A stretch of 63,512 nt of DNA, counting the filler, from Chrysochromulina tobinii (Eukaryota): NCBI GenBank assembly GCA_001275005.1. It is 8 parts of 8 records of this genome, joined end to end, with 100 filler letters (N's around TTAATTAATTAA, not from the genome) between each part and the next. Parts side by side here need not be neighbours in the genome. Positions count along the whole stretch, not along the records: positions 38,233 to 45,990 come from JWZX01000638.1; 7 more parts are not named here. One strand, written 5' to 3'. Positions 12,337-62,459 of this stretch are shown here, in pieces (position 1 is the first letter of the stretch; every line of letters starts with the position of its first letter). The position numbers were made by a program, and so were the translations under genes. Under the pieces are notes generated by a model that saw only the letters and a list, made by a program, of their open reading frames with translations, did not search any database and was not told where the DNA came from.

Positions 12337-15300
12337 TCACTCGGCGCCACACACGTCGCCGAGCGCCACGTACGAGAGCACCGGCGCGCACAGCTGCGCC
12401 GCCTCGTGCACCATCGCCACGGCGGCGCTTGCATCGAGCTGGATGGTGGTGCAGAGCGCGCGAACCTGCTGCTTGAGCTCGACGAGCGCGGGATCGAGAG
12501 GCTCTGCGGGGGTCGCGTCGTTCCCCGGGGAGGCCTCTCGGGAAGCGCCGCCGTGAGCGCCCGGGGAAGCGCCGCCGTGAGCGCCCGGGGAAGCGCCGCC
12601 GTGAGCGCCCGGGGAAGCGCCGCCGTGAGCGCCCGGGGAAGCGCCGCCGGCCGGCAGCGAACGCCGAATGGCGCCCGCGGCCTCGGCGAACTCGGCGGCC
12701 GTTGTGGTCAGGATCGCCGTGAGCCGATGTGCGGCTGCGCGCAGGCAGAGCGCCTTCCATCGCGCACGCTCGAGCTCGCTCACAAACGGCCAATCGAGTG
12801 CATGCACGAGCGGCTCGCCCTCGAGCGACGCCCCCGGCTCCGGCTGTGACGGCTTGTCAGCTTCGAGCCGACAGCGCGCTGCGTATGCATGGAGCGCCGT
12901 CAGGGCAGCCTCACACACCTTGGCGAGGCATTGAGTGCAGAGTGCACGAAGCATTGCCACGCCCTTCTGTGCCACTACGGCGCGCTCGGCCACGCTGCTA
13001 CCGCTAGTGCCCACGACGGCGCGCTCGGCCGCGCTGCTACCGCTGGTGCTACCGCTGGTGCTGGCACTGCCGCTGGCGCTGCCGCTGGCTCTCAGCGGCG
13101 GTGGCGACGCGCCGACGGGGGGGCCGCCGACGGGGGGGGCGCCGACGGGGGGTGCGAAAGGGCGAAGGCCAGGCGAGACTCCGCGGGTGAGGGCACTCGC
13201 GGCGGCGGCCCCCATGCCCCGTGCGGCGCGGCACGCGCGTGCCGCCTCGGCCTGCGCCCCCGCGCTCGCGTACTGCGCGAGGCGATCCGTCGGTGGTCCG
13301 CTCACGACGGCGCCTCGTTCCTTGCCCTGTCCCGGGGGACTGATCAGAGGTGCTCGCGGCGGCGCCTCGGACAGGGCCGCTTCGCTCACGAGCGCCTCGA
13401 CGCCCGAGAGCGCACGCTCGAGTGTGGCGCGTTGTGAGGGCGCCAGCCGCTGGAGCTTGAACTGGACGGCATGCTGACAGCTGTCTCGCATGTTCTCGAG
13501 CGTCTGCATCATCATGGAGCCACTGCCATACTCTTCGAGCCACGCCTCGAAGGAGCGCAGTGGCGGCGGCGGCGGCGGACCGGGCGGCGGGCCGGGTGTC
13601 CTCGCAACCCCAGCACCGCTGGCACCGCCCGTGCCGCAGGCGACTGGACGCGACGGGGACGCCGGTGCCGCACGACCCGCAGTGCCCGACACGGCGCGCC
13701 GCTCCTCGGCTGCTGGAGGATCGTCTGTGAAAGAGTCTGTGAAAGAGTTTCCTCTCGAGGCCGTTGAGACGACCGTGTCGATCATGGTGTCGATGAGCTG
13801 CACATTGTCCTTGATGCCGCTCATCACGGCGCCCGTCGTGGCGTCGATCGAGCTCACGGCCAGCTGGGTCGTGCTCGCAAGATTCGTCACCGCGAGCTCG
13901 CCCACCTCGGAGATCTCATTGAGGACGACATCGGACGCGACGCGCAAGCTGCTGACCGCCACCTCGCCGCCGACCGCCTCGACGCCAGCAAGCGCGTCGT
14001 TGAGCACCATGTCGCCCACGACGGCGGCCACCTTGACCACCCCAGCGACGCTTTTCGAGCCATCCTGCGCGAGCGCACTTAGGCCCTCGAGCGACTCGGC
14101 CGCCATGACGCCGGCGGATTTCGACACCTGTGCGGGGAAGGCACACATGAGCGCTCAGGCGCAATCATCAGTAATCATCCGTTTCGTCACCTGTGCCGAT
14201 CCAAGGCCATCAGAGGCGATCAGAGGCCATCCAAGGCCATCAGAGGCCATCTACGGTCCTCAGAGGCCATCTACGGTCCTCAGAGGCCATCTACGGTCCT
14301 CAGAGGCCATCTACGGTCCTCAGAGGCCATCTACGGTCCTCAGAGGCCATCTACGGTCCTCAGAGGCCCTCCAAGCGCGGGCTGTTCGTCACCTGCCGTC
14401 CGAGGCCACCGACATCAGAGGCGAGCTCCTTGAGCCCGCCGACCGCCTCGCCCATGAGCCCACCCAGCACGCTGCCGAACAGCCCGCTCCCAAACCGCCC
14501 TTCATCCATCGATGAGTGCGCCACGGCGCCCGGCGTGGCGCTCACTACGGCGCTCCGGATTGTCGGCTCGTCGGTGCTCACTACGGCGCTCTCGGATGGC
14601 TCCACCTCAGGAGTTGTGTTAAGCGTCGTGATGAGCGCAGGCGGATCACGCCAGCCATCATCATCGCCCCAGTCGTCATCATCGCCCCAGCCATCGCCAC
14701 CCTCTGTCGCCCCCGCCCCCTCGCCCTCGTCCGCCCCCGCCATCAGCACCGCAGTAGTGTCTCCGGACGGAGCGTCGTGTTGAGCGTCGGCGTGGCTCAT
14801 CTCTGGCAAGGCTGCATTCACAGTACGCACGTCTTCGCCCAAATCAGGCAACTCTTCGCCCAAGTCACCATCGCCCCAGCCGTCATGGTGGTCAACTCCG
14901 CCATCCGCCTCTTGTGCAGCATCGCCCTCGGAGGCGGCAGCCGCCGCCATCAGCGCCGCAGTCAGGCTACCCGACAGGCTGCCCAAAGGGGCAGCAGGGG
15001 AATACCTCCCTGAGATCTCGTCGCCTTCCTGCGCCAGCACCGCGGAAGCTCCCTGCGCCACCGAAGGTGCATCAGTCGTGGCTAGTGGCGCCGGCACCCC
15101 TGGAGGTATCAGCGCCTGCGAGGCGGCCGCCAGTGGTTCATCTCCTGCAGAGCCATGCACCCTGATGGCACGGGCGGCCGCAGAGGACTCGGCGCCGATC
15201 GCGGAGATCGTCTCGTCCCCAAGGACATCACTGGCCACCATCTCCCCCATCACGGACGCCACCTTGACCACATCTCGGCCTGCGACGCTTGCCATGCTCG

Positions 15301-35966: not shown

Positions 35967-38132
35967 GGCACCGCTTCTTCAAGAACTATGAGAGCAGCAC
36001 GAGCCCGGCTGCTCGGGCGCGCGTCACCGATGCCACGGAGGCGCGCGTGTCGGCGGGCAAGACGCTACACCTCGGCGCTGTGGGGCCCGATACCTTGTCG
36101 CTCATGAGGCAGGTGTTCGATGCGGCTTACATCTTCCCGATGGGCGCCACGGCGAAGCCGCTCGAGCCGACCAAGTTGCGGCCGACGGACGACCACACTC
36201 GCACCGGCCTCAACGCTGCCTGCGACATGTCCGGGCCCCCGTCGCTTTCGTACTCGATCGAGGCGTACGCGGAGATGGGGCGCCGCTTTCTCCCTGGGTT
36301 CGCGGCCCATGTGACGGACGTCGAGGCGGCCTTCCCCATGCTCCCCTTTGCACCGTGGGTTTGGCCGTTCATGTTCCATCGCTTTTACGCGAGCGAGGGC
36401 GACCCGAGGGCGCTACATCTGTACTGCCATCTGACTGGAGACTTTGGCACGCGTGGTATGCCCGGCGTGTTCAAGATCTTCTTCGTCGACGTCGTCCTCA
36501 ACATGGCGCGCGCGGCGCACGTCCTCACGATCCCGATGAGCGTCTACGTCGACGACCTGTGCGCGACGGGGCCCAAGGCCAGTGCTGTCACCCGTCGAGT
36601 GGTGACGTTCCAGGCGTGGGCCGAGGAGGTCTGCGGCGTCACGTTCAAGCAGATCAAGGACAAGGTGGGGTCGCAGGTGCAGCTCTTCGTGGGCTTCTGG
36701 TGGGACTCCTTCGCGGGCACGCGCACGCTGGAGGAGCGCAAGCTGTTCCAGTACATGGACATGTTCCTCGCCTTCTCGGAGCGCAAGACCCTGTCCTTAC
36801 ACGAGAGGCAGGTAGCCGCCGGTCGTATGCAGAGGGCGATCATGACGATGCCGCCGGGGGCTAGCTGCCTTCTCGCCAACATCTTCCTCCTCATGGTCGG
36901 CCTCTCGGTGGCCTGGCAAAAGAGGCGCACCACTCGAAAAGAACGGCAAGATTTCCGCTGGTTCCACTACATCCTCAATTCGAATATGGGCCGGGGCTAT
37001 TACACGACGGACCGGTTCCAGGAGGGGCCGACGGTCTTTTCGGATGCGTCGCGCTCGAATCGCTATGCGGGTGGTGGGTGGTGCTCGAGTTGGGGTCCCT
37101 TCGATTGGTGGAGATACGGCACGGCTGCTGCTCGCAAGCCTATCGACTTCCTCGAGGGCGACACGATGATCGCCAGCGTCGAGTCGCAGGGGCCGATGTG
37201 GGCTAAGAAGCTCATCCGGTACAAGATGGACAATCAAGCATTCCAGAAGTCTGCGGTGAAGGGCTGGTCGCGGGCCGATCGCCTCAACCTCTTGCTCAAG
37301 CGCCTCTTTGTCCTGCAGATCACCGGCGATTTCCTCCTCTGCTTCAACTGGGTCTCGTCGGCGGACAATGAGATGGCGGACCTCCTCTCTCGCGAAGGAG
37401 GAATCGAGCGCTTTCCCGAGGCCGTCGCGCGGCGCGCCTTCGTGGACGACCCTGCCTTGCTGCGGGCCATGCCGGGTGCAGGCCGTGTGCGGAACCTCGA
37501 CATGTCGATCCCGTTCGGCTCCGAGGACATGGGGCGCCTGTCGTCGCGTGCCCATGCCCCGGTCGACATGCTGTGGTTATCCCGCGCCATCCCCGCCATC
37601 GTCTGCATCCAGGCGGCGGCGCGAGGTTGGTTGTCTCGCCGCGCCCAACCGCGCGCACGAGTTTCCCCTCTGGAGGATTTCGGGGCTTTCATCGGCCGAT
37701 GGGCGCCTGGGAAGAAGTGCGTTTATGGACGTCTCGAGTGGGCCTACTTCTTCCCGGCGGAGGAGGGGGAACGCCTCTTCTCGAGGGTGCTCACGCTCGG
37801 CCTCGGCCTCGCTTACTTCCACCCGATTTACTTCGCGGCGTGCTTCGTGACGGGCATGTTGCTTGGGATGAGCGCCTGGGATCGCTCGCTGCTCCAAGAC
37901 GATAAGCAGCTCGAGTTCAGTATCGCCGAGTGCATTGACGTCAAGCGGGAGCACTCGGCCCGCTCGATACAGGTGTGGTGGCGATGGCTCACGACTCGCC
38001 GGTCACGGGACAACCCTCCACTACCCCCCGAGGGGGCGGTCGGCTGGTGCGCTTGCCCGTGGTGCGAGGTCCCGGTCTACGATGAAGACAATAACTATTG
38101 CGACATGTGCTGGCCCGTGGGATGCGGCTGTG
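35967..38132 (+). mobile_element. DIRS/Ngaro-type (tyrosine-recombinase) retrotransposon RT-RNase H ORF with C-terminal extension, truncated by gaps at both ends
   Basis: RT: LRPTDD, DVEAAF, FGTRGMPGVF, YVDD, FVGFWWDS. DIRS-type RNase H: FSDAS..GGGW, IDFLEG, MDNQ, WVSSADNEMADLLSR. The YR gene is not seen. Confidence 0.8.
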
Positions 38133-38232: not shown

Positions 38233-39409
38233 GATGGCCGCGGCGGCGGACGGCGAGGGTGGCGACGGCGGCGGCGCCGATCGCGCGGGCATGCGCAAGC
38301 GTAACCGCCGGGAGACGAAGTCCGACGTGATGCCCACCGTGCCCGATCATGGCAAGTTCGAAGACTTGGCGCCCGAGCGCCCCGTTGGAGGCAAGCGCTC
38401 GGCGCGCGAGCTCAACGAGGAGGAGGAGCAGTTGCATGCGGCCATGTCGCACGAGGAGACGGCGCAGGCGGCCATTTCGCGCCAAGCAGAGGCGATCGTG
38501 CTTGGCCAGATGCTTCTGAATCCGCAGAAGCGGCGCGCGCTTGAGGATCTCTCGTACACTCGCCACACGCGCAACGACCCACCCGGGCTGCCGCAGTGGT
38601 TCTTGGATGATGAGCGCAAGTATGCCCAGCCGTCGGGGTATGGGGTCGAGCTCGATGAGCAGATGCTCGGGCGCGCGCAGGTGCGATCTCCGTCCATCTC
38701 CATCGATCTCCCTGGATCTCTCTTGATCTCCCTTGATCTCCATTGATCTCATTTCATCTCCCTGGATGGCCCCGGATGGACCCTGATGGCACCCTCGCGC
38801 GCGCAGAATTCGCTCAAGGACGTTGATTGCCACTGATGATGCCCTGCCCTGCATGCAAGCGCTCACCACAGCGCGCACCCTCGCGCGCGCAGAACTCGCT
38901 CATCTGATGACCTCTGATTGCGACTGATGACCTCTGATTGCGACTGATGACCTCTGATTGCGACTGATGACCTCTGATTGCGCGCGCAGAACTCGCTCAA
39001 GGACATCACCGCGCGAACCATCGGCAAGGTGGCCGAGGCCAAGGCGCGCAAGCAGCGCCGGCTGCAGCGCGCGCTGACGAAGCTCAAGAAGAAGGCAGAG
39101 GGGATCGCGAACAACTCGGACATGTCCGAGCGCGACAAGAGCCAGGAGATCGAGAAGATGTACAAGAAGAAGCTAGGGGGCAAGAGCGAGAAGGACAAGA
39201 AGAAGGTCATGGTCGGCGCGGGCGGCGGGAGCGCCAAAATGCCCCACAACATCAAGCTCGTCGACAAGCGTAGCCGGAGCGATCAGCGCGGGCTGAGGAA
39301 GGCGGCGGCCAGGGCGAAGGGCAAGGGCAAGAAGCATGCCGGGAACTCGAAGAAGCATGGCAAGGCGCAGAAGAAGTCGAAGAATTACAGCCGCGCCGGT
39401 CGCAAGTGA
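38233..39409 (+). CDS. SPB1: SPB1/FTSJ3 pre-rRNA 2'-O-methyltransferase C-terminal part. Exons <38233-38680 and 38990-39409.
   Basis: Spb1_C-type motifs GLPQWFLDDERK, ITARTIGKVAEAKARK and KLVDKR..SD.R. Intron 38681-38989 restores the frame (RAQ|NSLKD). Confidence 0.85.
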
Positions 39410-39458
39410 GCGAAGCGGAGCGAAGCGGAGCGGAGCGGAGCGGAGCGGAGCGGAGCGG
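39408..39458. repeat. (GAGCG)n pentanucleotide microsatellite immediately after the SPB1 stop
   Basis: gagcgaagcggagcgaagcggagcggagcg... Confidence 0.85.
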
Positions 39459-40078
39459 TGGCGGCGGCAGCGGCGGCAGTGGAGGCGGTGGCGGCCCCAC
39501 GACGACGGTGCTGGCGGCGGCAGCGGCAGCTGCAGCAGCGGCGGCGGCAGCCGCGTTCTGTGAGTCTGCGCCGTCTCTGTTTCTCTGTGCATCGTCTCCT
39601 GGTGTAAATGCGTGAGCACATATGTGCCTCTGTTGTGCGCGCGATGAGCGATGAGAGCGGAGAGGCGATGCGGAATGAGAGCGAAGAGGCGCCCTTTGAC
39701 GTTTGAGACGGTGGCGCGGTGCTGCGTGACGCAGACGGCGCGCGCGGGGACCACGAGTAGAAGTGTGAAGACTGAAGTCCGCGACGAAACTCGGCCCCAC
39801 AGCTCTCGGGGCTGTTTCTTATTTAACAATCCCTTGGAAGTGTGAAGCACAGACGAAGACGAAACTGACTGACTACCTGGCAAGGGTTTACGAACGCAGG
39901 ATCAATCTCAGCGTCATCTCTCTTTTCTACCTGACGACACAAACCAGGCCTTTTCGTTTCCCCACAGAGCGGGGGGCCTGCCGCGAGCTCCCCAGGTGCA
40001 AGGGGCTGCTTGATGAGGGACGTAATCGCGAAAGGACAACCCGCAGCGTTCAACGCAGCTCCAACACCTCGCAGCGGC

Positions 40079-42568
40079 ATGCCTCCACGCAGCCGTCCCA
40101 ACACCTCGCCTGCGCGTCGGCAGCGAACGAGGGCGGCGTCGCCGTCGCCACCCAAGGGCTCGCCGTCGCCGTCGAAAAAGGCGTCCGCCGTCAAGACGAC
40201 TCAGACGGAAGCGCCGAAGAAAGATGGCTTGAAGATGTGGTACGCCGAAAAAGGTAAGCTGCGCATCGTTATCGACAACTACCTCTTGCCCATGCTGCTC
40301 ATGATCGCGTCGCCCTTGTGGTGTCTCGCGACTGCGTACATCACGTCGCTCAAGGAGCCCAGCTTCTCCTCATTTTACACCGAGTGCGTGAGCACAGGCG
40401 TGACCACCTGCGGCGGCTTAATTTTTGCCGCCACGTGGCCGACCGCCGCGTCGGTCACGCTGCTGGCCGTCTTCAACTTCATGGCCCTGCTGATCTACTG
40501 GTGGCCGGGCAAGACCGAGTACGGGCCCCTGACCGAGCATGGTGAAAAGCCCGAGTACATGGTCAACGGCGTCGCGCACTGCATCCTCTTCACGGCGAGC
40601 ATGCTGGCCGGCTCCGAGTACGGCCTCGGCTGGTTCAAGCTGAGCGTGCTCGCGGACAACGCCCCCGCGACGATCGGCACGCTCAACATCTTCGGCCTCC
40701 TCTTCTGTGCTCTCCTGTACTTCAAAGGACTCTACTTCCCCTCGGGGCCCGACTCGGGCACCGCCGGCCACGGGCCCGTCTTTGACTATTATTGGGGCAC
40801 GGAGCTCTACCCGCGCTTCGGGGGCGTGGACGTGAAGAAGTTTGTCAACTGCCGCTTCTCGATGACCTACTGGATGGTCTTTGGCATCTCGTGCCTCGCG
40901 AAGACGTACAATGAGAAGAAGACCATCGACCCAGGACTCTTCTTCTGCGCCCTCTCCCAGTTCCTCTACCTCAACAAGTTTTACATGTGGGCGGCGGCAC
41001 GATTGAGACGGATTGAGACGGATTGAGAAGGATTGAGACGGATTGAGACGGATGGCTTCGGATGGCCACGGATGGCCACTGATGGCGCCTGATGACCTCT
41101 GATGGCGTCTGATGGCGTCTGATGACAATCTGATGGCCTCTGATGGCCTCTGATGGCGCCCGATGGCCTCGACTGGTAGGTTGATGGCCCGCGAATTGCG
41201 CCCTATTCAGTTTCGTCATTGATTGCGCCCCTACTCAGGTGGGAGATTGGGTACATGCGCTCCATCGACATCATCGTCGATCACGCTGGCTTCTATGAGA
41301 CCTGGGGCTGCCTTGTCTGGGTGCGATATCCATTTAATCTTCATAGATCTCCATTTAATCTCCCTTGATCTCCCTTGATCTCCCTTGATTGCCTCTTGAT
41401 TGCCCGACAAGCTCCTCTGATTGCCTCTTGATTGCCTCTCGATTGCCTTCGATTGCCTTTGATGACCTCCGGATTTTGAGTCCCTCATCAGGTTCCCGCT
41501 ACCTACACGCTGCACACGCGCTCCATGCTGAGTTTGTCATCTGGCCTCTCCTGGCCGGTGGCCTTCACCATCTTCTCACTCGGGCTACTCGGCGTTGGCC
41601 TCAACTTCTGGGCTGATGAGCAGGTCTGATTGCGTCTGATTGCGTCTGATTGCGTCTGATTGTGGATCGATCTCAACTTCTGGGCTGATGAGCAGGTGAG
41701 TGCTGATGAGTGCTGATGATGGTTGCTGATGAGTGCGTCTTCTGAATGACCCCGCTGATGGCCCCCGTTGATTGCCACTGATGTCGACCACTGACCTGGA
41801 TCTCATGTGGGTTCGCATCGGCAGCGCGACACCTTCCGCGCTACCGGCGGCAAGTGCACCATCTGGGGAAAGAAGCCTGTCTTCATCGAGGCCGAGTACG
41901 TTGATGCCACTGAGTGCCACTGATTGCCAATGATGGAAAGAAGCCTGTCTTCATCGAGGCCGAGTACGTTGATGCCACTGATTGCCACTGATTGCCACGG
42001 ATTGCCACTGATGGCAAGAAGCCTGTCTTCATCGAGGCCGAGGACGTTGATGCTCTCTGCTCGCCTCTCTGCTTGCCTCTGCTCGCCGCTGATGACCACC
42101 GATGATTGCCACCGATGATTGCCACCGAGGACCTGTGACGACCTCGGATGGCCTCTGATGGCCTCTTGAATGCGCGCCTCATCAGGTACGAAACGGTCGA
42201 CCCGGACAGCGGTGCTCTTGTGAAGCGCAAGTCGCTCCTTTTGGCAAGTGGCTGGTGGGGCACTGCGCGCCATCAACACTACTGCTTCGATGATGTTCCG
42301 ATGATGACATCTGATTGCATCCCTCATCAGGTGGGGCACTGCGCGCCATCAACACTACTGCTTCGAACTGATGGCCGCGTACTCATGGGGCTTGCTGGCA
42401 GGCGTGCACACTCACGGGTTGCTCCCTCTCTTCTACCCCATCTTCCTCACCGTCCTCCTCGTCCACCGCGCCCATCGCGACGAGGAGAAGTGCATTGCCA
42501 AATATGGAAAGTACTTTGAGGAGTACATGCGCATCGTGCCGTACCGGATCGTCCCTTTCATCTACTGA
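40079..42568 (+). CDS. DHCR7: 7-dehydrocholesterol (sterol delta-7) reductase. Exons 40079-40986, 41239-41320, 41492-41623, 41825-41895, 42186-42254 and 42331-42568.
   Basis: Spliced product reads DYYWGTELYPR...DVKKFVNCRFSM...WEIGYMRSIDIIVDHAGFYETWGCLVWVP...FRATGGKCTIWG...LLASGWWGTARH...HRAHRDEEKC..KYG...VPYRIVPFIY (ERG4/ERG24 family, DWF5-like). All five introns are GT-AG and in frame. Confidence 0.9.
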
Positions 42569-42657
42569 GCGGGGCATGCCAACTTTGGTACCTACGTTGA
42601 CGAATTCTCGGGGCATGCCAACTTTGGTACCTACGTTGACGAATTCTCGGGGCATGT
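42569..42657. repeat. Tandem 39-bp duplication in the DHCR7 3' flank
   Basis: cggggcatgccaactttggtacctacgttgacgaattct x2 plus a partial copy. Confidence 0.85.
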
Positions 42658-42871
42658 ACATCGTTCCCCATACCGGGTCGTCCCTTCCAAATAAGGCAAC
42701 ATGGGAGCATTCTCACTGATCTGGACTTGCCTACTATGGCACGTACACTCAATCTCCCCTGAGCTGGGCTCGAGGGCATGGGTGCTGAGGGATGCAGCGG
42801 ACTGAGGGCTACAGGCTTGAAAGCTCTGGTTGCCTGGGGATCATTGATCTGGTTGCCTGGGGATCATTGCA

Positions 42872-43010
42872 GGTTTCGGCGCGGTCTCATTTTCCACATT
42901 GGTGGTTTCGGCGCGCTCACATTTTCCACATTGGTGGTTTCGGCGCGGTCTCATTTTCCACATTGGTGGTTTCGGCGCGGTCTCATTTTCGACATTGGTG
43001 GTTTCGGCGC
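42872..43010. repeat. ~32-bp minisatellite x4
   Basis: ggtttcggcgcggtctcattttccacattggt repeated. Confidence 0.85.
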
Positions 43011-43291
43011 CTGCGCCACGCTCGACTGCACTGGCGGGAAACTTAAACTGAGACGGCGCTGTCCTGAGCTATGCGTCGTGTCGATTTGGGTGGCCGTGGG
43101 GTTTTTCAGGGTGGTGGAGAGAGCGTTTTCTCACCTTGTCCGGTCTGGCCGTTGTCGTCATCTCATCGTGTTGCATGTCCGGTCTGGCCGTTGTCGGTTA
43201 TTCTCATCGTGTGGGTTCGAACGGTTCGATGTGCCGCGGAGACCGTGCGTGTGTGCGCACATGGTTTATGAAAATGCGCGCGATCGACAGG

Positions 43292-44122
43292 TCACAACCA
43301 CCACGGCCACCATGCCGCGCACGCACTCCCGGCCGCCGCCAGGCCGAGACTGACCATTGCCGCAACGCCAACCGCCGCCACCGTGAGGCGCACCGCCTCG
43401 GCGCTTGGCGCTTGGAGCTTGTCACGGACGGACGGCGTAATGTGAAACGAACTCGAGGCCATGGTGGCGAGCCCGTCGGAGCTGCTGTGCAGCAGCAGGG
43501 AGAGCTCGAGCGCGTCCTGGAGCGCCGTATCGGCGCCGTGCGCGAGCCGCCTTCGCCCGAGGTCCCACCAACGGCCAAACGCCCATCGCGCATCGCCGAT
43601 GAAGCTGAGCCGTTCGTCGGCGCAGTCGCCGCGCCGGAGCGAGGAGCGCAGGCCATCGGCAGCCACGACGTGGTCAAAGACCTCGAGCGTCTTGCCGTCG
43701 GTGAATGAGAGCTGCAGTCCACCGGCGACGGCGTGCACGCCGCACACCGTCTTGTTGAAGCGAACGGTTCCGGGCAGGAGTGAGTCGGCCAACGCTCGGA
43801 GCAGCCCCGGGTAAGAGACGACGGACGGGCCACTGCTCGAGTCACCGCAGAGCTCCTCCCACGCGCGTCCCAGCCCGAGCTCTCCCATCGTGCGACTGCC
43901 CGAGGCTAAGCGTATCTCGCCCTGTATGCAGTCGATCCCGAGCGGATTGGCCTCGAAGACGACCACTTTCCGGAGGCGGCGCTGCTGGATAGCCCGAGCG
44001 ACGGCTAGGCCGCCAAAGCCGGCGCCGACGACCGCGACGACGCCGTCGTCGATGGACGCCAACGGCTCGCCGCGCGGTCGCGGCCGCCGCCGCCCTGGAC
44101 TGGCGGCTCGAGCCGAAGGCAT
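43292..44122 (-). CDS. Compact FAD-dependent monooxygenase-like protein with C-terminal hydrophobic anchor
   Basis: VAVVGAGFGGL (GxGxxG), VVVFE, VVAADGLRS (DG motif), FIGDA...GADTALQDA (GD motif). Confidence 0.7.
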   Translation of the reverse strand: MPSARAASPGRRRPRPRGEPLASIDDGVVAVVGAGFGGLAVARAIQQRRLRKVVVFEANPLGIDCIQGEIRLASGSRTMGELGLGRAWEELCGDSSSGPSVVSYPGLLRALADSLLPGTVRFNKTVCGVHAVAGGLQLSFTDGKTLEVFDHVVAADGLRSSLRRGDCADERLSFIGDARWAFGRWWDLGRRRLAHGADTALQDALELSLLLHSSSDGLATMASSSFHITPSVRDKLQAPSAEAVRLTVAAVGVAAMVSLGLAAAGSACAAWWPWWL

Positions 44123-44277
44123 CGATCTTCGAGCACACCAGAAGTTGTGAAGCCCTCGTGCCACCCATCAAAAGTGGAAGCCCGAAGCACAACCCTTGGG
44201 TCCGGGGCAGGTCGAGACTCGAAAACCTTGAAGCTCGAACTCAATCTCGCGGGCTGGAGGTCACCCGAGCTCCGTCC

Positions 44278-45990
44278 ATGGTCACCACACTGGCTGCGCT
44301 CTTGCTGTGCGGCGCGAGTGCCTACACGCTTGGGATCCAGCATGCGCGTGCAGGGCGCATCAGCACGTCCGCTGCGGTCATGAGCAGCGTCGCTTCACCC
44401 GTAGCTGCGGACGCGCAGCTCAGCGCCTTCAATGCCTGGCTCGAGGCGAACAGTATCGCGTCGAGCAAGGTGCAGGCGGCCCGGCTGCCAGGCTGGGGCG
44501 TGTGCCTCATCGCGGGCGAGAATGGCGTGCAGCCGGGCGACACGCTCCTCTCCGTGCCGTCGAGCCTTCATCTCACGCCCTCCAAGGTTCAGGCGTCTCC
44601 TCTGGGGGAGGCGGCCGCGCCCGTGGTCGGTGGCGACGAGTCCGCGCTGCTCGCGCTCGGGCTGCTGGCCGAGCTGGGTAAGGGCGAGGCGGGATGCACG
44701 TGCTGGCCGTACCTCGACCTGCTCCCCTCTGCCGACGCCATGCACGGCATGCCGCTGCTTTGGTCTGACGACGAGCGCTCGCGCCTTCTCCGCGGCAGCC
44801 ACCTCGACGGCGCGGTCGCCGACTCGCGCGCGATGATCCTCGATCAATGGGCGGCGCTTGAGACGATGGTGCTGCCGGAGCACCCGGCCGAGCTCTTCCC
44901 GCGTGAAGTCTTCCACGCCGCGGGGTACCTATGGGCTCCTTGATTGCGCCTTGATGGCGCCTTGATGGCGTCTTGATGGCGTCTTGATTGCATCTGATGG
45001 GCCCAGTTGAGGACCTCTGATGGCGCCCCTCATCAGGTACCTATGGGCTCACGCCATCGTCCTCTCGCGCGCGTTGCCGTTTGGGGAGGAACTCCACTTG
45101 ATTCCTCTCCTCGACCTCGCCAACCACCAGGTCTGATTGCCATCCTGATTGCTAGGGCTCCACTTGATTCCTCTCCTCGATCTCGCCAACCACCAGGTCT
45201 GATTGCCATCCTGATTGCTAGGCAGATTGCCAATTGATGACTATCTGAGTGATCTCGCCAACCACCAGGTCTGATTGCCATCCTGATTGCTAGGCAGATT
45301 GCCAATTGATGACTATCTGAGTGGCCTCGCTCCTCGACCTCGCCAACCACCAGGCGGGCGTGAAGCACACGTGTTCCATCGGCGTCGCCGGAGGGCAGCA
45401 GGCGGGCATCAAGGAGTCCTGGCAGCTTGATGGGAAGGAGAGCGCTGCGGTCCTCACGGCGGGAAGCGCCCTCAAGCCGGGCGAGCAGGTGTGATTGCGT
45501 CTGATTGCGTCTGATTGCGGGCGAGCAGGTGTGATTGCGTCTGATTGCGTCTGATTGCGTCTGATTGCGGGCGAGCAGGTGTGATTGCGTCTGTGCCTCC
45601 GAGCACGTCTGATTGCGCCTGATTGCGTCTGATCGGCGTCTGAGTGGCTCCGAGCACGTCTGATTGCGCCTGATTGCCTCTGATTGCGCCTGATTGCGTC
45701 TGATTGGCGTCTGAGTGGCTCCGAGCACGTCTGATTGCGCCTGATTAGGTGTTCATCGATTACGGCGAGTCTGGCTGGCGTTCCTCGTGGGAGATGCTCT
45801 ACACGTATGGCTTCGTGCCGGGCCAGGATCACAAGCAGTGGCTCGCGAGCGGCGGCCGCCCGATCTTCTTCGCCGGAGTGGCGCCCGAGGACCCCTTGAG
45901 CGCTCAGAAGCGCGCGCTGCTCGTCGCGCTCGGCGCTCACGAAGGCGCTTCGGAGGGCACGTGGATCGATCTCAAGCCAGTCAAGGAGCA
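44278..45990 (+). CDS. SET-domain protein, Rubisco LSMT/SETD3 type, with signal peptide. Exons 44278-44924, 45037-45130, 45354-45488 and 45749->45990.
   Basis: FNAWL, GDTLLSVP, WPYLDLLP, PLLWS, then spliced YLWAHAIVLSRA...LIPLLDLANH...GEQ|VFIDYG...MLYTYGFV. Three GT-AG introns, all in frame. Confidence 0.88.
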
Positions 45991-57592: not shown

Positions 57593-58530
57593 TGCATTTT
57601 GGATATGATGCATTTTATTGCATTATGATGCATTCTCAGAGTCCGCTTCATGTTGGTGCATTCGTGACGTGGTGCATACGCAACGAGGATTATTGTGACG
57701 CATTGTGACGCATAGTGCATAGATGCATTTTAATGCATTCCTGACGAGGTGCATTTACGCGTATTGTAGTGCATGTTGATTCAGGTGCATTCTTATACAG
57801 TTGCATTTTAATGCATTCGCACGCCTCAGATCTTCAGATGCATTTCGTCTCCACAGCCCATCCGAAGCCCATCCTGTCCATGCTGCATGCTTCCATGTGA
57901 GTTTAGCCTTGAGTCCTAACTTGAGTCCGCTCGGCTTCTCTTGTGTATGTTTGTGTGGTCCACGAGTCTGGCGCATTTGTGCGCATACTCACGCATGTTG
58001 GGGTATTTTTTTGCATTCACACGCATCATGAAGCAGTCATGAAGCAAGTATCATGCTTATCATCGCGCCGCGCGCGGCGCATCCAAATCAGGCATTGTTC
58101 CCCTTTCGTGAACTGGAATACGAATTTATGCACATGAATGCATCATAGTTAGAATGCATCAGAATGCAACGCATTAACATGCATCTGAATGCGCTAATAT
58201 GCATCATGTTCAGAATGCATACATACGGTAATGCTCATGAATGTATCACGTGCACCAAATGCATGATAATGCAGCAGAGGATGGAAATGCATCGTATTAT
58301 AGATGCATGAAAATGCATTGAAATGCACCAGATACTGAATGCATTGTGATGCAACAAATGTAATGCAGGTAAATGCACATTAATGCATCGTACCAGAATG
58401 CAACCTACATGAATACGTCGAAATGCAAATGAATGCGTGAGCATGCAGCAGTTCAGAAATGCATCAAAATAGAATGCAATGAAATTTTGTTGAATGCATT
58501 AAAATGCACGAGAATGCAACAAAATGCGGT
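57593..58530. repeat. AT-rich degenerate TGCAT/ATGCA repeat region with mirrored strand polarity
   Basis: Left half is dominated by TGCATT, right half by AATGCA. Confidence 0.7.
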
Positions 58531-58728
58531 GAGTAATAAACTACACCGATTTGAGTAATAAACTACAACTATCCCGGCGGAGGAGGGGGCGGCGGAGGCG
58601 ACCATTACGACGACGACGATGATGAAGGCCCACCTCTTCCCCCTCAACTCCCGCCCTTCAGCAACGAGAACCCCACAGCCTCGCTTCCCACGTCCTTTGA
58701 CTCCATCCCCGATTCTGCATGGGCCACC

Positions 58729-60828
58729 TTGGGCCTCGATGAATCTGATGTGATTGCTCTCGAAAGGCGCCTTCTCGATTTCAGCACTTCTCGAAAGCTC
58801 TCCTCTCCCCAACGTGCCATGTTTGATCACTGCACGACGATTACCGCCGAAGCGATTACCTCTGCTTCACCCCAAATAGCTGCCCGCTATTATGCTCTCT
58901 TCCATCTCCTACCACGTATGCTCGTCACCGAGACGTCCTTACGACGAGCCAAGGCGTCATCCCCACGACCCTATTGGAGCCAAGGCAAAAAGAAGCAGCA
59001 GCAGCACCGCCGGCATGCCTCGACGGCCCACGAGGATGTCGTTTTCCGCTCTCGATGCTACGCTTTCCTCACAGGGAATTGGGCTCCCCTCCTCAAGGTC
59101 CATCGGTCGGCGCGCCGAATTGTACACGCAACTGATGACAAGAAGCTATCGCAAGACATCCTCGCCCTTATCCACGGTGGACAACTCAGTCGGGCCATGG
59201 CTCGAGCAGACGCGATGGCTCTTGCCGCGCCCGTTGCCTCCACGATAGCGGCCCTTCGTGCCTTACACCCCCCGGATGATCACGCCCTCCATCCCGATAG
59301 CTCCGACCCCCCTCCGATCTCCGACTACGCTCCCCCCGACCCACCCCTTGAGCCTCTCTCTCGCACCCACTTCCATGAAGTGTGGTTCCGCAAACTCCCC
59401 AAACTTTCTGCTGCTGACCACGGCGGCTGGCGCTACGAGTACCTTTCTTCTACCTACCGCTTCCTTTCCACTACACGCCCTGACGCCCCCCCCGGCGCTC
59501 CCTCCTCCTTTATCCCCGGCCGAGGCGCTGACGCCCTCTTCAACCTGGCCTCCACCATCTTCGATGGTCACATCCCCGCGTCTGTGCGCCCCTGGTTCCT
59601 CGGTGGCCGCCTGATTGCCCTCTCAAAGGAAGGTGATGACCCGTCACTCGATGAGACGAAACGCAAACTCCGGCCGATTGCCATCGGATCTACTCTGGGT
59701 AGAGCTGTATCCATGGTTGTGGCCCGACAGTACAAGGATCGCTTTGCCGCGTACCTTCAACCGCCCCCGCCAGGCTCCTCGAACCCCCCAGCGCAGCCCA
59801 ATGGGGCGCCCTGGCCCGCCCAAGTTGGTGTTGCCTGCAGCTCAGGCCTGGAGTTCACCACGCATTCCGTCCGAGCTGTCCTCGATGAAAATCCTTCATG
59901 GGTGGACGTCGCCCTGGACGCGAAGAATGCATTCAACTCCATCCACCGACGCACTTTCCTGAAGGTAATAGCCGAACGCTTCCCGGGCCTTTGGAGCTGG
60001 GTGTGGTCGAACTACGGCGAGCCCACGGAGCTCTACGTCAGACGCGATAACCTCGAACCGGAAGTCATCCTCAGCCGGTCCGGCACAAGGCAGGGGTGTC
60101 CTCTCGGTGCCCAACTTTTCGCCCTCGGCCTCCACCCAGTTCTCTGCCTCGTTCAATCCCTCCTTGGCCAAAGGGGCATGCTGATCGCATACGCCGACGA
60201 TATCCACATCCTTTGCCCGCCGACCGTAGCCAATGAAATCCTCCTTGTCCTTGCTGCCCCCGCGTCCATCTCCCCTCCAGCCAACCCCAATGACCCTATC
60301 CTCGACCCATCTTTCATCTCGACGGGCCTAGAGCTCGGACCGGGGAAGCAGTCCATCTACGGTCCCTCCTTATCCGATCCTGCCACCCGTGCACGCGTTA
60401 CCCAACTCCTCGGTCCCTCCATCCGCCTCCTCGGCGACCCCAGAATAGCCTCCTTCCAAGGCAAAGCAGACGCCATCCTGCGAGGGGAAGGCTCGACCAT
60501 CGCCCCTGGCCACCCTGTCCTCGGCTGCCCAGTCGGCACAGATGCCTACGTTGAGTCGGTCATCCAAGCCTCGGCAGATAAGGCTGCCGCCCTCGAGGGC
60601 ATCGATTTCATCTCCCACCTCGCCAGGCGCACCGACAATTCCATTCCGCCTGCCCTTCTCCACCAAGCCTCTTGGATTGCACCCAGACTAGCCCCTATGA
60701 TCAGAATGGCCCTCGGCTTCGCCGTCCGGCGAGGCCTCGCGGCAGCCGTCTATCACTGGTGGCGACGCTTCCCTGCTCTTGGCCAGCGACCCCCGACGCC
60801 GCCTCTGCCCCCGCCGCCGTCTCTGCTG
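58729..60828 (+). mobile_element. Non-LTR retrotransposon reverse transcriptase, CRE-clade-like, probably internally deleted
   Basis: GRLIALSK, LRPIAIG, QVGV..SGLE..HSVR, LDAKNAFNSI, GTRQGCPLG..LFALGL, AYADDI and LGCPVG..YV. Confidence 0.85.
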
Positions 60829-61494
60829 NNNNNNNNNNNNNNNNNNNNNNNNNNNNNNNNNNNNNNNNNNNNTTAATTAATTAANNNNNNNNNNNNNNNN
60901 NNNNNNNNNNNNNNNNNNNNNNNNNNNNCGCCGTCGCGCCACCAATGATGGCGCTGGCAATCTGGGTCCTCGTGGCCGTCTCGGGTCCCGGTGCCCTCTG
61001 AGGGGCCGCTGAGTGCCCTCTGAGTGCCGCTGAGTGCCGCTGAGTGCCCTCTGAGTGCTGCTGAGTGCCTCTGATTGCGTCTGATTGCGTCTGATTGCGT
61101 CTGAGTGCCTCTGAGCGCCTTTGAGTGCCTCTGAGTGCCTCTGAGTGCCTCTGAGTGCCTCTGATGACCTCTGATTGGCCTATGCGTGGCTCTGAGTGCT
61201 ACTGATTGCCCTCCGACTGCTCATTATGACCCCTGATTGCCCTTGATCACCTCTGACTGCCCTCTGACTGGCCTCTGATGACCTCCGACTGCTTACGATC
61301 ACCTCTGAGGGCCTCTGAGGGCCCGCTGAGGGCCGCTGAGGGCCACCGAGAGGCCTCTGATTGCCCTCTGAGTGGCGCTGAGTGCCCTCTGATTGCGAAT
61401 GATGACAACTGATTGCCCTTGATTACCTATGATGACCTCTGATGACCGCTCAGGGCCTCTCATCCACGCGGCAAGGGGGGAGGGGGCGGCGTAC

Positions 61495-62459
61495 CATGTC
61501 CCTCGCCGAGGCGGCCTCCGGGTTCGCCACGAGGAGCGCCTGCACCACCGCCACCGATGAGCTGCACGCAGCGGCGTAGTGAAGGGGCGTGCACCCGTCC
61601 TGTGCGTGGAACACAGCAGCAAGGATGAGCGATGACGTGGGCGGGGCGGATGAGAGGGACAGGGTGCTTGGACGCTACGCAGGGCGAGGGGCGGTGAAGA
61701 CCGCGTGCCGAGGGCCCTCTGCGTGCCTCTGAGTACCGCTGAATGCCACTGAGTGCCTCTGAGTGGCTCTGAGTGCCTCTGATGACCTCTGAGTGCCTCT
61801 GAGTACCTCTGATCACCTCTGATGAGCCACTGAGTACCTCTGATGGCCTCTGAGGGGCCCGCTGATGGCCTCTGAGGGGCCCACCGAGTGGCCACCGAGT
61901 GGCTCTGAGTGCCGCTGAGTGCCCTCTGATTGCGAATGATGACCACTGATTGCCCTTGATTACATATGATGACCTCTGATGACCGCTCAGGGCCTCTCAT
62001 CCACGCGGCAAGGGGGGAGGGGCGGCGTACATTGTCCCTCGCCGTGGCGGCCTCCGGGTACGCCGCGAGGAGCGCCTGCACCACCGCCACCGATGTGCTG
62101 CACCCAGCGGCCACGTGAAGGGGCGTGTACCGCCCGCCCTGTGCGTGGAACACAGCAGCAAGGACAGAAGGAGGGTGAGCGACGAGGTGGATGGGGCGGA
62201 TGTGAGGGACAGGGTGCTTGCGGGGGGCGCGCGAGCGCTGGCGAAGGTGCGGAGTCGTACGGCCGCGCCGCCGCCACCCCCTGCGGCCCTTCCCCTGCCC
62301 CCGCCCCGTCGATCGCTTCGCCACCGGGCGGCGCTGTCCCGAGCGCGTCGCGTGCAAAATGCGGCGCACCCAATTCGTCGCGCTGGCTGCTGCTGGCGTG
62401 ATCAGCGAGAGGACCTCGGCGTCGGGCCGTCTGTACGTGCGGTGATCCAGGAGGCTCAT
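61495..62459 (-). CDS. Ankyrin-repeat gene, one repeat per phase-0 exon. Exons 62459-62370, 62138-62031 and 61599-61495; continues toward the gap at 60928.
   Basis: Exons encode GGRYTPLHVAAGCSTSVAVVQALLAAYPEAATARDN and DGCTPLHYAAACSSSVAVVQALLVANPEAASARDM. Donors GT(A/G)CGCCGC, acceptors TTCCACGCAC(AG). Confidence 0.75.

What the first reader, a model, noticed from the sequence alone, without database searches (positions are those of the whole stretch)
38681..45748. Candidate intron-generating system: exon-junction duplication plus branch-point-like TGAT repeats
Seen: nine introns in SPB1, DHCR7 and the SET gene were placed exactly by restoring conserved reading frames, plus one in the kinase gene. 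Their bodies are almost entirely degenerate ~10-nt units (CTGATTGCGT, CTGATGACCT, CTGATGGCCT, TTGATCTCCC) read on the sense strand. Most have a direct repeat of their own exon boundary that supplies a splice site: 36 nt (DHCR7 i5), 24 nt (SET i2), 14 nt (SET i1), 10 nt (SPB1), 5 nt (DHCR7 i1 and i4), 4 nt (SET i3). Established: YTRAY is the U2 branch-point consensus, and CTGAT fits it. Described Introners are dispersed near-identical transposon copies, typically with terminal repeats and short TSDs. Inference: here there is no conserved element body or TIR and the duplication length varies. That suggests a break-repair or short-template polymerase/RT process that copies the junction and adds TGAT units, producing immediately spliceable, stop-rich insertions.
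Basis: partly seen in the sequence, partly recalled or inferred. Interest (0 to 1): 0.9.

Follow-up and report, generated by a model that had tools for sequence, protein, structure and literature searches.

The report
Introns seeding new introns in algae
In this alga's genes, introns built from 10-letter repeats sit beside doubled bits of exon, some are missing in a close wild relative, and one carries a scrap of a neighbouring gene, so new introns are likely made when DNA repair copies the end of an existing intron into an exon.

Summary
The contig is Chrysochromulina tobinii (spliced DHCR7 equals KOO36076.1). All nine introns are GT-AG. RNA contigs splice SPB1 directly and DHCR7's five by exact length. 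Two independent assemblies carry the duplications. Border repeats of 10, 15, 25 and 37 nt exceed chance; those of 3-6 nt do not, and DHCR7 i2 and i4 sit at positions shared with distant algae. New here: a 98.7%-identical wild relative lacks i5 and the first 72 nt of i3 exactly, and other wild contigs carry an extra intron this strain lacks. The i3 block matches the SET gene's intron-4 block about 4.9 kb away, including 10 nt of SET exon, with microhomology at both ends. So fillers are likely copied from existing introns by template switching, not made de novo. Phaeocystis-like contigs show the same layout with telomeric filler. A published Introner scan lists 0 families for this genome. The scan noted related cases before (e1-2577349, same genome; e1-7377132, another genome). 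DNA versus RNA template and the enzyme are untested.

The parts
38681..38989 (+). SPB1 intron, 309 nt; 10-nt border repeat on the exon-end side; two inner copies of the 3' splice junction plus next-exon start (about 38790-38821 and 38876-38902)
   Evidence: RNA contigs of X11 and X13 join 38670 to 38980; boundaries; Spb1_C on both exons; inner copies read
40079..42568 (+). DHCR7 coding span, six exons
   Evidence: spliced product identical to KOO36076.1; ERG4_ERG24
40987..41238 (+). DHCR7 i1, 252 nt, ends in a variant 3' module; 5-nt border repeat (chance level); present in close relatives, not seen in distant ones
41321..41491 (+). DHCR7 i2, 171 nt; likely an old position (shared with L056), filled with the same units and 3' module
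41624..41695 (+). Young block at the start of DHCR7 i3: 48-nt filler starting GT plus 24-nt copy of the exon end ending CAG; an intron in itself; absent in L052
41662..41671 (+). 10 nt of SET coding sequence carried inside the i3 block (part of a 32-nt exact match, 41645-41676, to L005 16477-16508)
41696..41824 (+). Older remainder of DHCR7 i3 with its own GTGAGT donor; shared with L052
41896..42185 (+). DHCR7 i4, 290 nt; likely an old position (shared with L056 and L041); holds extra copies of the exon end, one 78-nt unit (41938-42015) absent in L052
42255..42330 (+). DHCR7 i5, 76 nt: 36-nt copy of the next exon's start (gives GT) plus 40-nt filler ending in the 3' module; absent in L052 and in 5 more distant genomic loci
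42570..42656 (+). 39-nt tandem duplication in the DHCR7 3' UTR, no filler; single in L052
44925..45036 (+). SET (Rubisco-LSMT-like) gene i1, 112 nt: 14-nt copy of next exon start plus filler ending in the 3' module
   Evidence: RNA contig length fits its removal
45131..45353 (+). SET i2, 223 nt: filler starting GT plus 24-nt copy of exon end; 66-72-nt units whose number differs between assemblies (553 nt in L005)
45489..45748 (+). SET i3, 260 nt (452 in L005): TCTGATTGCG-type units with inner copies of the donor junction
45961..45990 (+). End of SET exon 4 (codes W-I-D-L-K); duplicated in SET i4 just beyond the contig end (L005 16436-16524); likely donor of the DHCR7 i3 block
14128..14392 (-). 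Kinase-gene intron, 265 nt, GAT units on the sense strand, inner 11-nt copy of the donor junction; border repeat at chance level

Best explanation
These are spliceosomal introns of Chrysochromulina tobinii, and the young ones were likely made by microhomology-guided template switching that copies a splice-site-bearing end of an existing intron into an exon while doubling the adjacent exon sequence. Inferred steps: at a break or stalled fork in an exon, the free 3' end pairs by a few bases with another intron (the abundant 10-nt GAT units and the AG|GT junction offer many such matches), copies about 40-100 nt, and re-enters its own gene 15-37 nt upstream. Type A products get the branch-point-like motif and AG from the copied 3' module and GT from the duplicate (i5, SET i1). 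Type B products get GT from the copied 5' module and CAG from the duplicate (i3 block, SET i2). Only exactly spliceable products survive in exons, which would explain the fixed module ends and the sense-strand bias. Each new intron is a further donor, so the system would spread without a transposon. The same process and plain slippage likely refill old introns (i2, i4) and stack units. Shown: boundaries, splicing of SPB1, repeats, presence/absence, the donor match. Inferred: direction (gain), the switching mechanism, branch-point use, selection.
For: Donor-recipient pair: the DHCR7 i3 block matches SET i4's first block exactly over 32 nt, including 10 nt that are SET coding sequence; the 15-mer occurs only at these sites in the window, L005 and L006; entry match GAGCAG|GT (8 nt), exit match CTCAA (5 nt). 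4 of 4 introns that open with this filler follow GAGCAG, against 4 of 43 exonic CAGs preceded by GAG. Two neighbouring type A introns 337 nt apart share 21 nt of 3' end, against 4-11 nt for the best match of the 7 other ends in L005. L052 (19 mismatches in 1,514 aligned bases) lacks i5, the i3 block, one i4 unit and the UTR duplication exactly. Wild contigs show an extra type A intron at Leu213/Tyr214: 3 of 30 close proteins from 2 contigs break there (…PLIR-Y… read-through of the 3' module), 22 match the unbroken motif. A 67%-identical sister protein on contigs up to 17 kb runs through SET i4 and i5. Duplicates are variable: 15, 21, 26, 33, 35, 37 nt. 14 of 15 CCT(CA/AC)TCAG modules are followed by GT, 12 of those 14 with a GA(T/A) adenine at -17. 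Filler-free tandem duplications are common in the window: 20 of 29 exact repeats of 22 nt or more lie outside the ten introns.
Against: Only one donor is traced, and the copy differs from it (4 units against 6; second base of the donor site differs). The four GAGCAG cases are not independent if they copied from each other, and three lie in one gene. The i5 filler has no local donor; its 3' end is shared with many other places (24 contigs with loose ends at 42333 in X9), so donors are not always near. Loss by recombination between the repeats in L052 would give the same difference, though it still needs a duplication origin. DNA and unspliced RNA templates give the same product. i2 and i4 are at shared positions. 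No genome-wide count was possible. In a 93%-identical relative SET i1's duplicate reads at least 25 nt, not 14 (P0197, P0210), so some length variation may be erosion rather than origin.
Confidence: 0.6

Rival explanations
1. Target-primed reverse transcription: a non-LTR retrotransposon enzyme working in trans copies excised introns or pre-mRNA into a staggered nick, giving a fixed 3' end, a variably truncated 5' end and a variable target duplication (a SINE-like or retro-Introner route).
For: Type A has a fixed 3' end at the AG, variable 5' end and 15-37-nt duplicates, as TPRT gives (established knowledge, recalled). The window holds a 773-aa ORF with RT-like motifs (58555-60828, YADD; motif reading is mine). 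Fillers are sense-strand only. The i5 module is dispersed. Non-LTR-derived introners are about 5% of classified cases (PMC12130899, passage).
Against: Type B has the fixed end at 5'. The traced donor needs exon sequence upstream of the donor site (GAGCAG), which an excised intron lacks. All inner junction copies seen are the unspliced form. No poly(A) tail. Neighbours share ends best. Selection alone explains fixed ends and strand.
Confidence: 0.17
2. A short-template polymerase (telomerase or a relative) adds the units de novo at break ends.
For: In Phaeocystis-like contigs the filler is telomeric, and some introns run (GTTAGG)n then (CCCTAA)n, as two healed ends joined would (L047 816-979; L034). 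Haptophyte telomerase makes TTAGGG (PMC3622300, passages). Units keep a 10-nt period.
Against: 75 different 10-mers among 124 units; TTAGGG and CCCTAA occur once each in the window; one filler is traceable to a neighbour. Even the telomeric type A fillers end in CAG, whose CA is neither repeat nor target, which points to copying of an intron end.
Confidence: 0.1
3. Old introns were invaded by a 10-nt minisatellite, and local slippage across splice junctions made the exon copies; no new intron positions arise.
For: i2 and i4 positions are shared with L056 (both) and L041 (i4). Inner copies in SPB1, i4, SET i2 and SET i3 are local duplications. 10-11-bp intron repeats were reported for Emiliania huxleyi (Read et al. 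2013; recalled, paper not held).
Against: i5 is absent in 6 of 6 other genomic loci covering the site, including the 98.7% relative; the extra intron at residue 213/214 is in a minority of close relatives; local slippage cannot bring SET exon bases into DHCR7. It holds for part of the set only.
Confidence: 0.1
4. The duplications are assembly errors, or L052 is a collapsed assembly.
For: Copy numbers in SET i2 and i3 differ among the window, L005 and L006. All four exact duplications in the compared stretch are single in L052.
Against: L005 and L006 match 38233-45294 at 99.77%; contigs of DNA run X9 span the i3 block start and i4. L052 keeps a 30-nt exact repeat at 68-nt period and a 53-nt perfect tandem match, so it would not collapse a 26-nt repeat. 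RNA removes the introns.
Confidence: 0.03

Closest known systems
[quoted passage not shown]
   Same: New introns flanked by direct repeats that overlap splice sites; insert joined by microhomology.
   Different: There the insert is a captured, mostly unknown fragment and repeats are called short. Here duplicates reach 37 nt, the insert matches another intron's end, a donor is traced, and products can serve as donors.
Introners / Introner-like elements (PMC9860276 passages; bioRxiv 10.1101/2020.10.14.339549 part 1 of 4; PMC12130899 passages)
   Same: One splice site is carried and the other comes from the target duplication; dispersed shared ends; a marine Chrysochromulina MAG has Introners with 4-bp TSD and no TIR.
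   Different: Families there have similarity up to both ends and fixed TSDs (4 or 8 nt in the classes read). Here only a 10-21-nt end is shared, bodies are mosaic low-complexity units, duplicates vary, and either end can be the carried one. Low-complexity families were filtered out in PMC9860276; C. tobinii is listed with 0 families in PMC12130899's supplement.
Tandem genomic duplication model of intron gain (PMC3443670, passages)
   Same: Duplicated exon sequence supplies splice signal; coding sequence unchanged.
   Different: That model takes both sites from a duplicated AG|GT. Here the duplicate gives one site and a foreign filler gives the other plus the branch-point-like motif.
FoSTeS / MMBIR / polymerase-theta templated insertions (recalled; PMC2621351 seen as search listing only)
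   Same: Duplication plus a short insert copied from nearby DNA with microhomology at each joint.
   Different: Known as a source of copy-number change; I found no paper showing it as a running source of introns (searches listed in the full report). The enzyme is untested here.
10-11-bp tandem repeats in Emiliania huxleyi introns (Read et al. 2013, recalled); interstitial telomeric tracts in Calcidiscus leptoporus (PMC13518057, passages)
   Same: Haptophyte introns or genomes rich in short repeats.
   Different: Described as repeat content; the Calcidiscus passages read do not link it to intron birth or exon duplication.

Membership tests
Introner (PMC9860276 definition) | Intron-to-intron similarity reaching near both splice boundaries | tested here: not met
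   3' ends share 4-21 nt between separate introns; 5' starts of type A are each gene's own exon
Introner (PMC9860276 definition) | Characteristic fixed TSD length per family | tested here: not met
   15, 21, 26, 33, 35, 37 nt
Introner (PMC9860276 definition) | Many dispersed copies | tested here: met
   For the end modules only: 11 in L005; 24 contigs with loose ends at 42333 and summed contig depth hundreds of times the exon level in X9 (not a copy number)
Introner (PMC9860276 definition) | One splice site carried, one co-opted from the duplication | tested here: met
   i5, SET i1 (AG carried); i3 block, SET i2 (GT carried)
Introner (PMC9860276 definition) | Terminal inverted repeats or an autonomous partner element | tested here: inconclusive
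   ATCAG is the complement of CTGAT, but none of the nine introns has both a GTCTGAT start and a TCATCAG end; no genome to search for a partner
Tandem genomic duplication intron | Both splice sites from a duplicated AG|GT | tested here: not met
   Duplicates lie almost wholly on one side of the junction (left/right 1/36, 1/14, 24/1, 10/0)
Intron gain by break repair | Direct repeat overlapping a splice site, beyond chance | tested here: met
   4 of 9 borders 10-37 nt against 0-6 in 72 cross pairs
Intron gain by break repair | Recent gain shown by an allele without the intron | tested here: met
   L052 lacks i5 and the i3 block; i5 site unbroken in 6 of 6 loci
Intron gain by break repair | Dependence on an end-joining or template-switch pathway | not testable with these tools
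   needs induced breaks or mutants
Non-LTR TPRT insertion | Fixed 3' end, variable 5' end, variable TSD | tested here: inconclusive
   fits type A, reversed in type B
Non-LTR TPRT insertion | RNA marks: poly(A) tail or spliced junction in the insert | tested here: not met
   none in the nine introns or the L005 units
Telomerase-added insertion | Exact telomeric repeat as filler | tested here: not met
   C. tobinii: 75 different units, TTAGGG once in the window. Met in Phaeocystis-like loci L034, L040, L045-L047
U2 spliceosomal intron | GT-AG ends and removal from RNA | tested here: met
   9 of 9 GT-AG; SPB1 join listed, DHCR7 by exact contig length, SET i1 consistent; SET i2, i3 and the kinase intron not shown
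U2 spliceosomal intron | Branch point at the CTGAT adenine | not testable with these tools
   -17 spacing in 12 of 14 modules fits function or common descent; needs lariat reads

The most novel reading that the evidence does not exclude
Prymnesiophyte algae run a transposon-free intron chain reaction: DNA repair copies branch-point-repeat intron ends into exons, every product is a new donor, and the founding fillers were laid down by telomerase at breaks (still visible as G-run-then-C-run introns in Phaeocystis-like contigs), with the 10-nt CTGAT units of Chrysochromulina as the diverged counterpart of CCCTAAC. It would be a major route of mass intron gain that Introner scans filter out.
Probability: 0.25. 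Interest if true: 0.9.

Novelty: new variant of a known kind. Interest (0 to 1): 0.74.

Why it matters
Where new spliceosomal introns come from is a long-standing question, and current surveys credit bursts of gain almost wholly to transposons (PMC12130899, passages). This locus offers a traced donor, an intron-free allele and a second polymorphic site in one gene of a cultured, sequenced alga that those surveys score as having no Introners. It makes the break-repair model directly testable by population genomics and induced breaks, and it would explain why haptophyte introns are full of short repeats and why their assemblies fragment.

Tried and rejected
No whole genome is held and metagenome loci are not searchable by handle, so no genome-wide counts. 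Pattern scans gave little: viral contigs 1, 4, 3 and 0 stretches, prokaryote genomes 0 and 4. Of these only L057 and L065 look like stray algal pieces with the 3' module; the others viewed are phage or bacterial. The joint table is swamped by repeat-bearing contigs from other places and was cut (172 joints and 3,708 pieces not shown), so only the SPB1 join is listed outright. Runs X17-X20 hold next to none of the words and were not used. Rejected: 3-6-nt border repeats as evidence; a MITE reading (GT duplication plus CTGAT/ATCAG ends), since no intron has both ends and CCCTCAT is explained as a sense-strand unit variant; C. tobinii units as telomeric. P0138 reads across i1 and into i2, but I cannot tell a part-spliced RNA from an allele without i1. 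My motif test for unbroken sites missed four proteins that differ in sequence (P0002, P0143, P0145, P0147) although they align across the site, and it fails for some loci at i3 and i4, which I read by eye. One search fetched an unrelated paper through a misremembered DOI; nothing was taken from it. Read et al. 2013 is not held and the search for its 10-11-bp statement found nothing.
Full report
Source. The window is a chain of contigs joined by N linkers. The piece 38233-45990 is 7,758 bases, the contig length listed for KOO36076.1, DHCR7 of Chrysochromulina tobinii, and the spliced gene equals that protein. The genome paper says only that genes have about one intron (PMC4580454, passages). 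No whole genome was available, so everything rests on the window, two longer independent assemblies of the same region (L005, L006), 54 other DHCR7 loci, protein clusters and one read-laying table.

The introns are real. All nine are GT-AG. RNA contigs from two runs join SPB1's exons across 38681-38989. For DHCR7 the table was cut, but X11's 1,213-nt contig has 623 unlisted letters, exactly exons 2-6 up to 42599, where contigs of two other runs end; keeping any one intron would need 699-913. P0144 is identical to the spliced protein over 191 of 191 residues across i2-i5. An X12 contig fits removal of SET i1 (96 unlisted letters, exon 2 is 94). SET i2, i3 and the kinase intron rest on reading frame only. 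L005 and L006 match 38233-45294 at 99.77% with the duplications in place; copy numbers differ in SET i2 and i3.

What is and is not beyond chance. TGAT outnumbers its complement 92 to 5 in introns and 9 to 12 in exons; the 10-nt period is clear; the units are diverse (75 kinds in 124) and cover 39-77% of each intron. Border repeats of 10, 15, 25 and 37 nt exceed the 0-6 nt of 72 cross pairs; 3, 4, 5, 5 and 6 do not. Seven of nine introns hold an 11-36-nt copy of a flanking exon somewhere inside.

Two layouts. Type A: a copy of the next exon's start gives GT, then a filler ends in a stereotyped module. Of 15 CCT(CA/AC)TCAG hits in L005, L057, L065 and the rest of the window, 14 are followed by GT, 12 of them with an adenine of GA(T/A) at -17; three of these are tandem copies of one unit. 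Type B: a filler starts with GT and a copy of the exon end gives CAG. L005 adds further cases outside the window, with duplicates of 21, 33 and 35 nt. Clean single units measure 72-112 nt. Contigs from many other places share the i5 module through the following GTG (24 in X9, 6-7 in each RNA run), so the modules are widespread.

Ongoing change. L052, a metagenome contig with 19 mismatches in 1,514 aligned bases, lacks i5 (76 nt), the first 72 nt of i3, a 78-nt unit of i4 and a 38-nt UTR duplication, each exactly. It keeps a 30-nt exact repeat and a 53-nt tandem match, which argues against collapse. The i5 site is unbroken in 6 of 6 other genomic loci that cover it (two are near-duplicates). 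Conversely 3 of 30 close proteins, from 2 contigs, break at Leu213/Tyr214 with a duplicated peptide and a read-through of the 3' module, an extra type A intron that this strain lacks; this is read from peptides, not DNA. Against a purely young set: i2 and i4 lie at the same codon and phase as introns of L056 (best match Diacronema), i4 also in L041 (best match a diatom). Parallel gain at proto-splice sites is possible, but old positions refilled with the same modules is the simpler reading.

A traced donor. The young i3 block ends its filler with 10 bases that are SET coding sequence (W-I-D-L-K, conserved in four relatives). SET i4, just past the contig end in L005, begins with a type B block whose duplicate starts with those bases. 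The two match exactly over 32 nt (41645-41676 and L005 16477-16508), about 4.9 kb apart on the same strand. The recipient shares GAGCAG|GT with the donor at entry and CTCAA at exit. The copy has four units where the donor has six, so a slip within the array or later change is needed. All four introns opening with this filler follow GAGCAG (background 4 of 43), though they are not independent. Neighbouring type A introns 337 nt apart share 21 nt of end against 4-11 for others.

Mechanism. The simplest account is microhomology-guided template switching during repair or replication, with selection keeping exactly spliceable products (0.6). An RNA template with a retrotransposon RT makes the same type A product, and an RT-like ORF lies in the window, but type B and the exon-side match need unspliced template and no RNA marks were seen (0.17). 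De novo synthesis by a short-template enzyme fits poorly here (0.1). Pure invasion of old introns holds for part of the set (0.1). The origin of the 10-nt period is unexplained.

Relatives. DHCR7 loci whose best match among six references is Phaeocystis cordata (L034, L040, L045-L047; no tree built) have introns at other positions with the same layout but telomeric filler: duplicates of 17-27 nt, ends in CCCTAACCAG|G, an extra stacked unit in L047 against L040, and introns that run G-strand then C-strand repeats. CTAAC and CTGAT both fit YTRAY (established). Haptophyte telomeres are TTAGGG (PMC3622300, PMC11347835, passages). Their splicing was not tested. L053-L055 show exon-plus-intron duplications with AT-rich filler.

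What is known. Break-repair gain with direct repeats, tandem duplication and Introners are established categories (PMC3020277, PMC3443670, PMC9860276, PMC12130899: passages; bioRxiv 10.1101/2020.10.14.339549: first quarter). This works like an Introner in carrying one site and co-opting the other, but fails the both-ends and fixed-TSD tests. C. tobinii has 0 families in the 2025 survey (12 of 14 supplements searched) and appears in the 2022 genome list but, in the stored and cut file, not in its Introner table; that survey removed low-complexity families. Ten searches (listings and abstracts, at most 30 rows each) showed no paper describing this system; subscription journals and bioRxiv supplements are not covered, and the 10-11-bp intron repeats of E. 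huxleyi are recalled from Read et al. 2013, which I could not read. The scan itself noted a 15-bp-repeat intron elsewhere in this genome, read there as a mobile family, and a telomeric newborn intron in another genome; these are unchecked notes and not counted as support.

Verdict. Real, spliced where testable, partly young and polymorphic, with one donor caught. New variant of break-repair intron gain; interest 0.74.

Noticed in passing
L047 816-979; L034 59-900; L040 1050-1205; L045 987-1650: Phaeocystis-like contigs have introns made of telomeric repeats, some G-strand then C-strand, with 17-27-nt exon duplicates; some appear to use GC donors.
   Followed up: partly
window 58555-60828 +: 773-aa ORF with non-LTR-type reverse-transcriptase motifs (YADD), cut by the contig end; not scanned against families.
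   Followed up: no
window 35969-38131 +: 721-aa ORF with a YVDD motif and RNase-H-like stretch, possibly a DIRS-like retroelement (my reading); no Pfam hit at 0.001.
   Followed up: partly
window 60929-62130 +: Two diverged copies of a roughly 520-nt unit, each with a long TGAG/TGAT array; may be a stacked intron-exon duplication or non-coding.
   Followed up: no
window 57593-58530: AT-richer region dense in TGCA/ATGCAT words, partly self-complementary; unexplained.
   Followed up: no
window 43292-44167 -: 291-aa ORF resembling an FAD-dependent monooxygenase fragment (GAGFGG motif), head to head with the SET gene.
   Followed up: no
L053/L054 3366-5069; L055 67-1705: Repeated whole-exon plus intron duplications with AT-rich microsatellite filler and GGGTTAACCC palindromes in another alga.
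   Followed up: no
L005 2760-3060: Five stacked 63-65-nt units, each a copy of an exon start plus a filler ending CCCTCAG, with no GT at the obvious junction.
   Followed up: no
L057; L065; L062 6001-6030; L066 6001-6030: L057 looks like a phage-alga chimeric contig and L065 like an algal piece binned in a bacterial genome; short TCTGATTGCG triplets also occur in non-coding DNA before an integrase-like gene (L066) and after a tRNA (L062), probably unrelated.
   Followed up: partly
young units in window and L005: Duplicate plus filler of clean single units totals 72-112 nt whatever the duplicate length, hinting at a size floor for splicing or a copying limit.
   Followed up: partly
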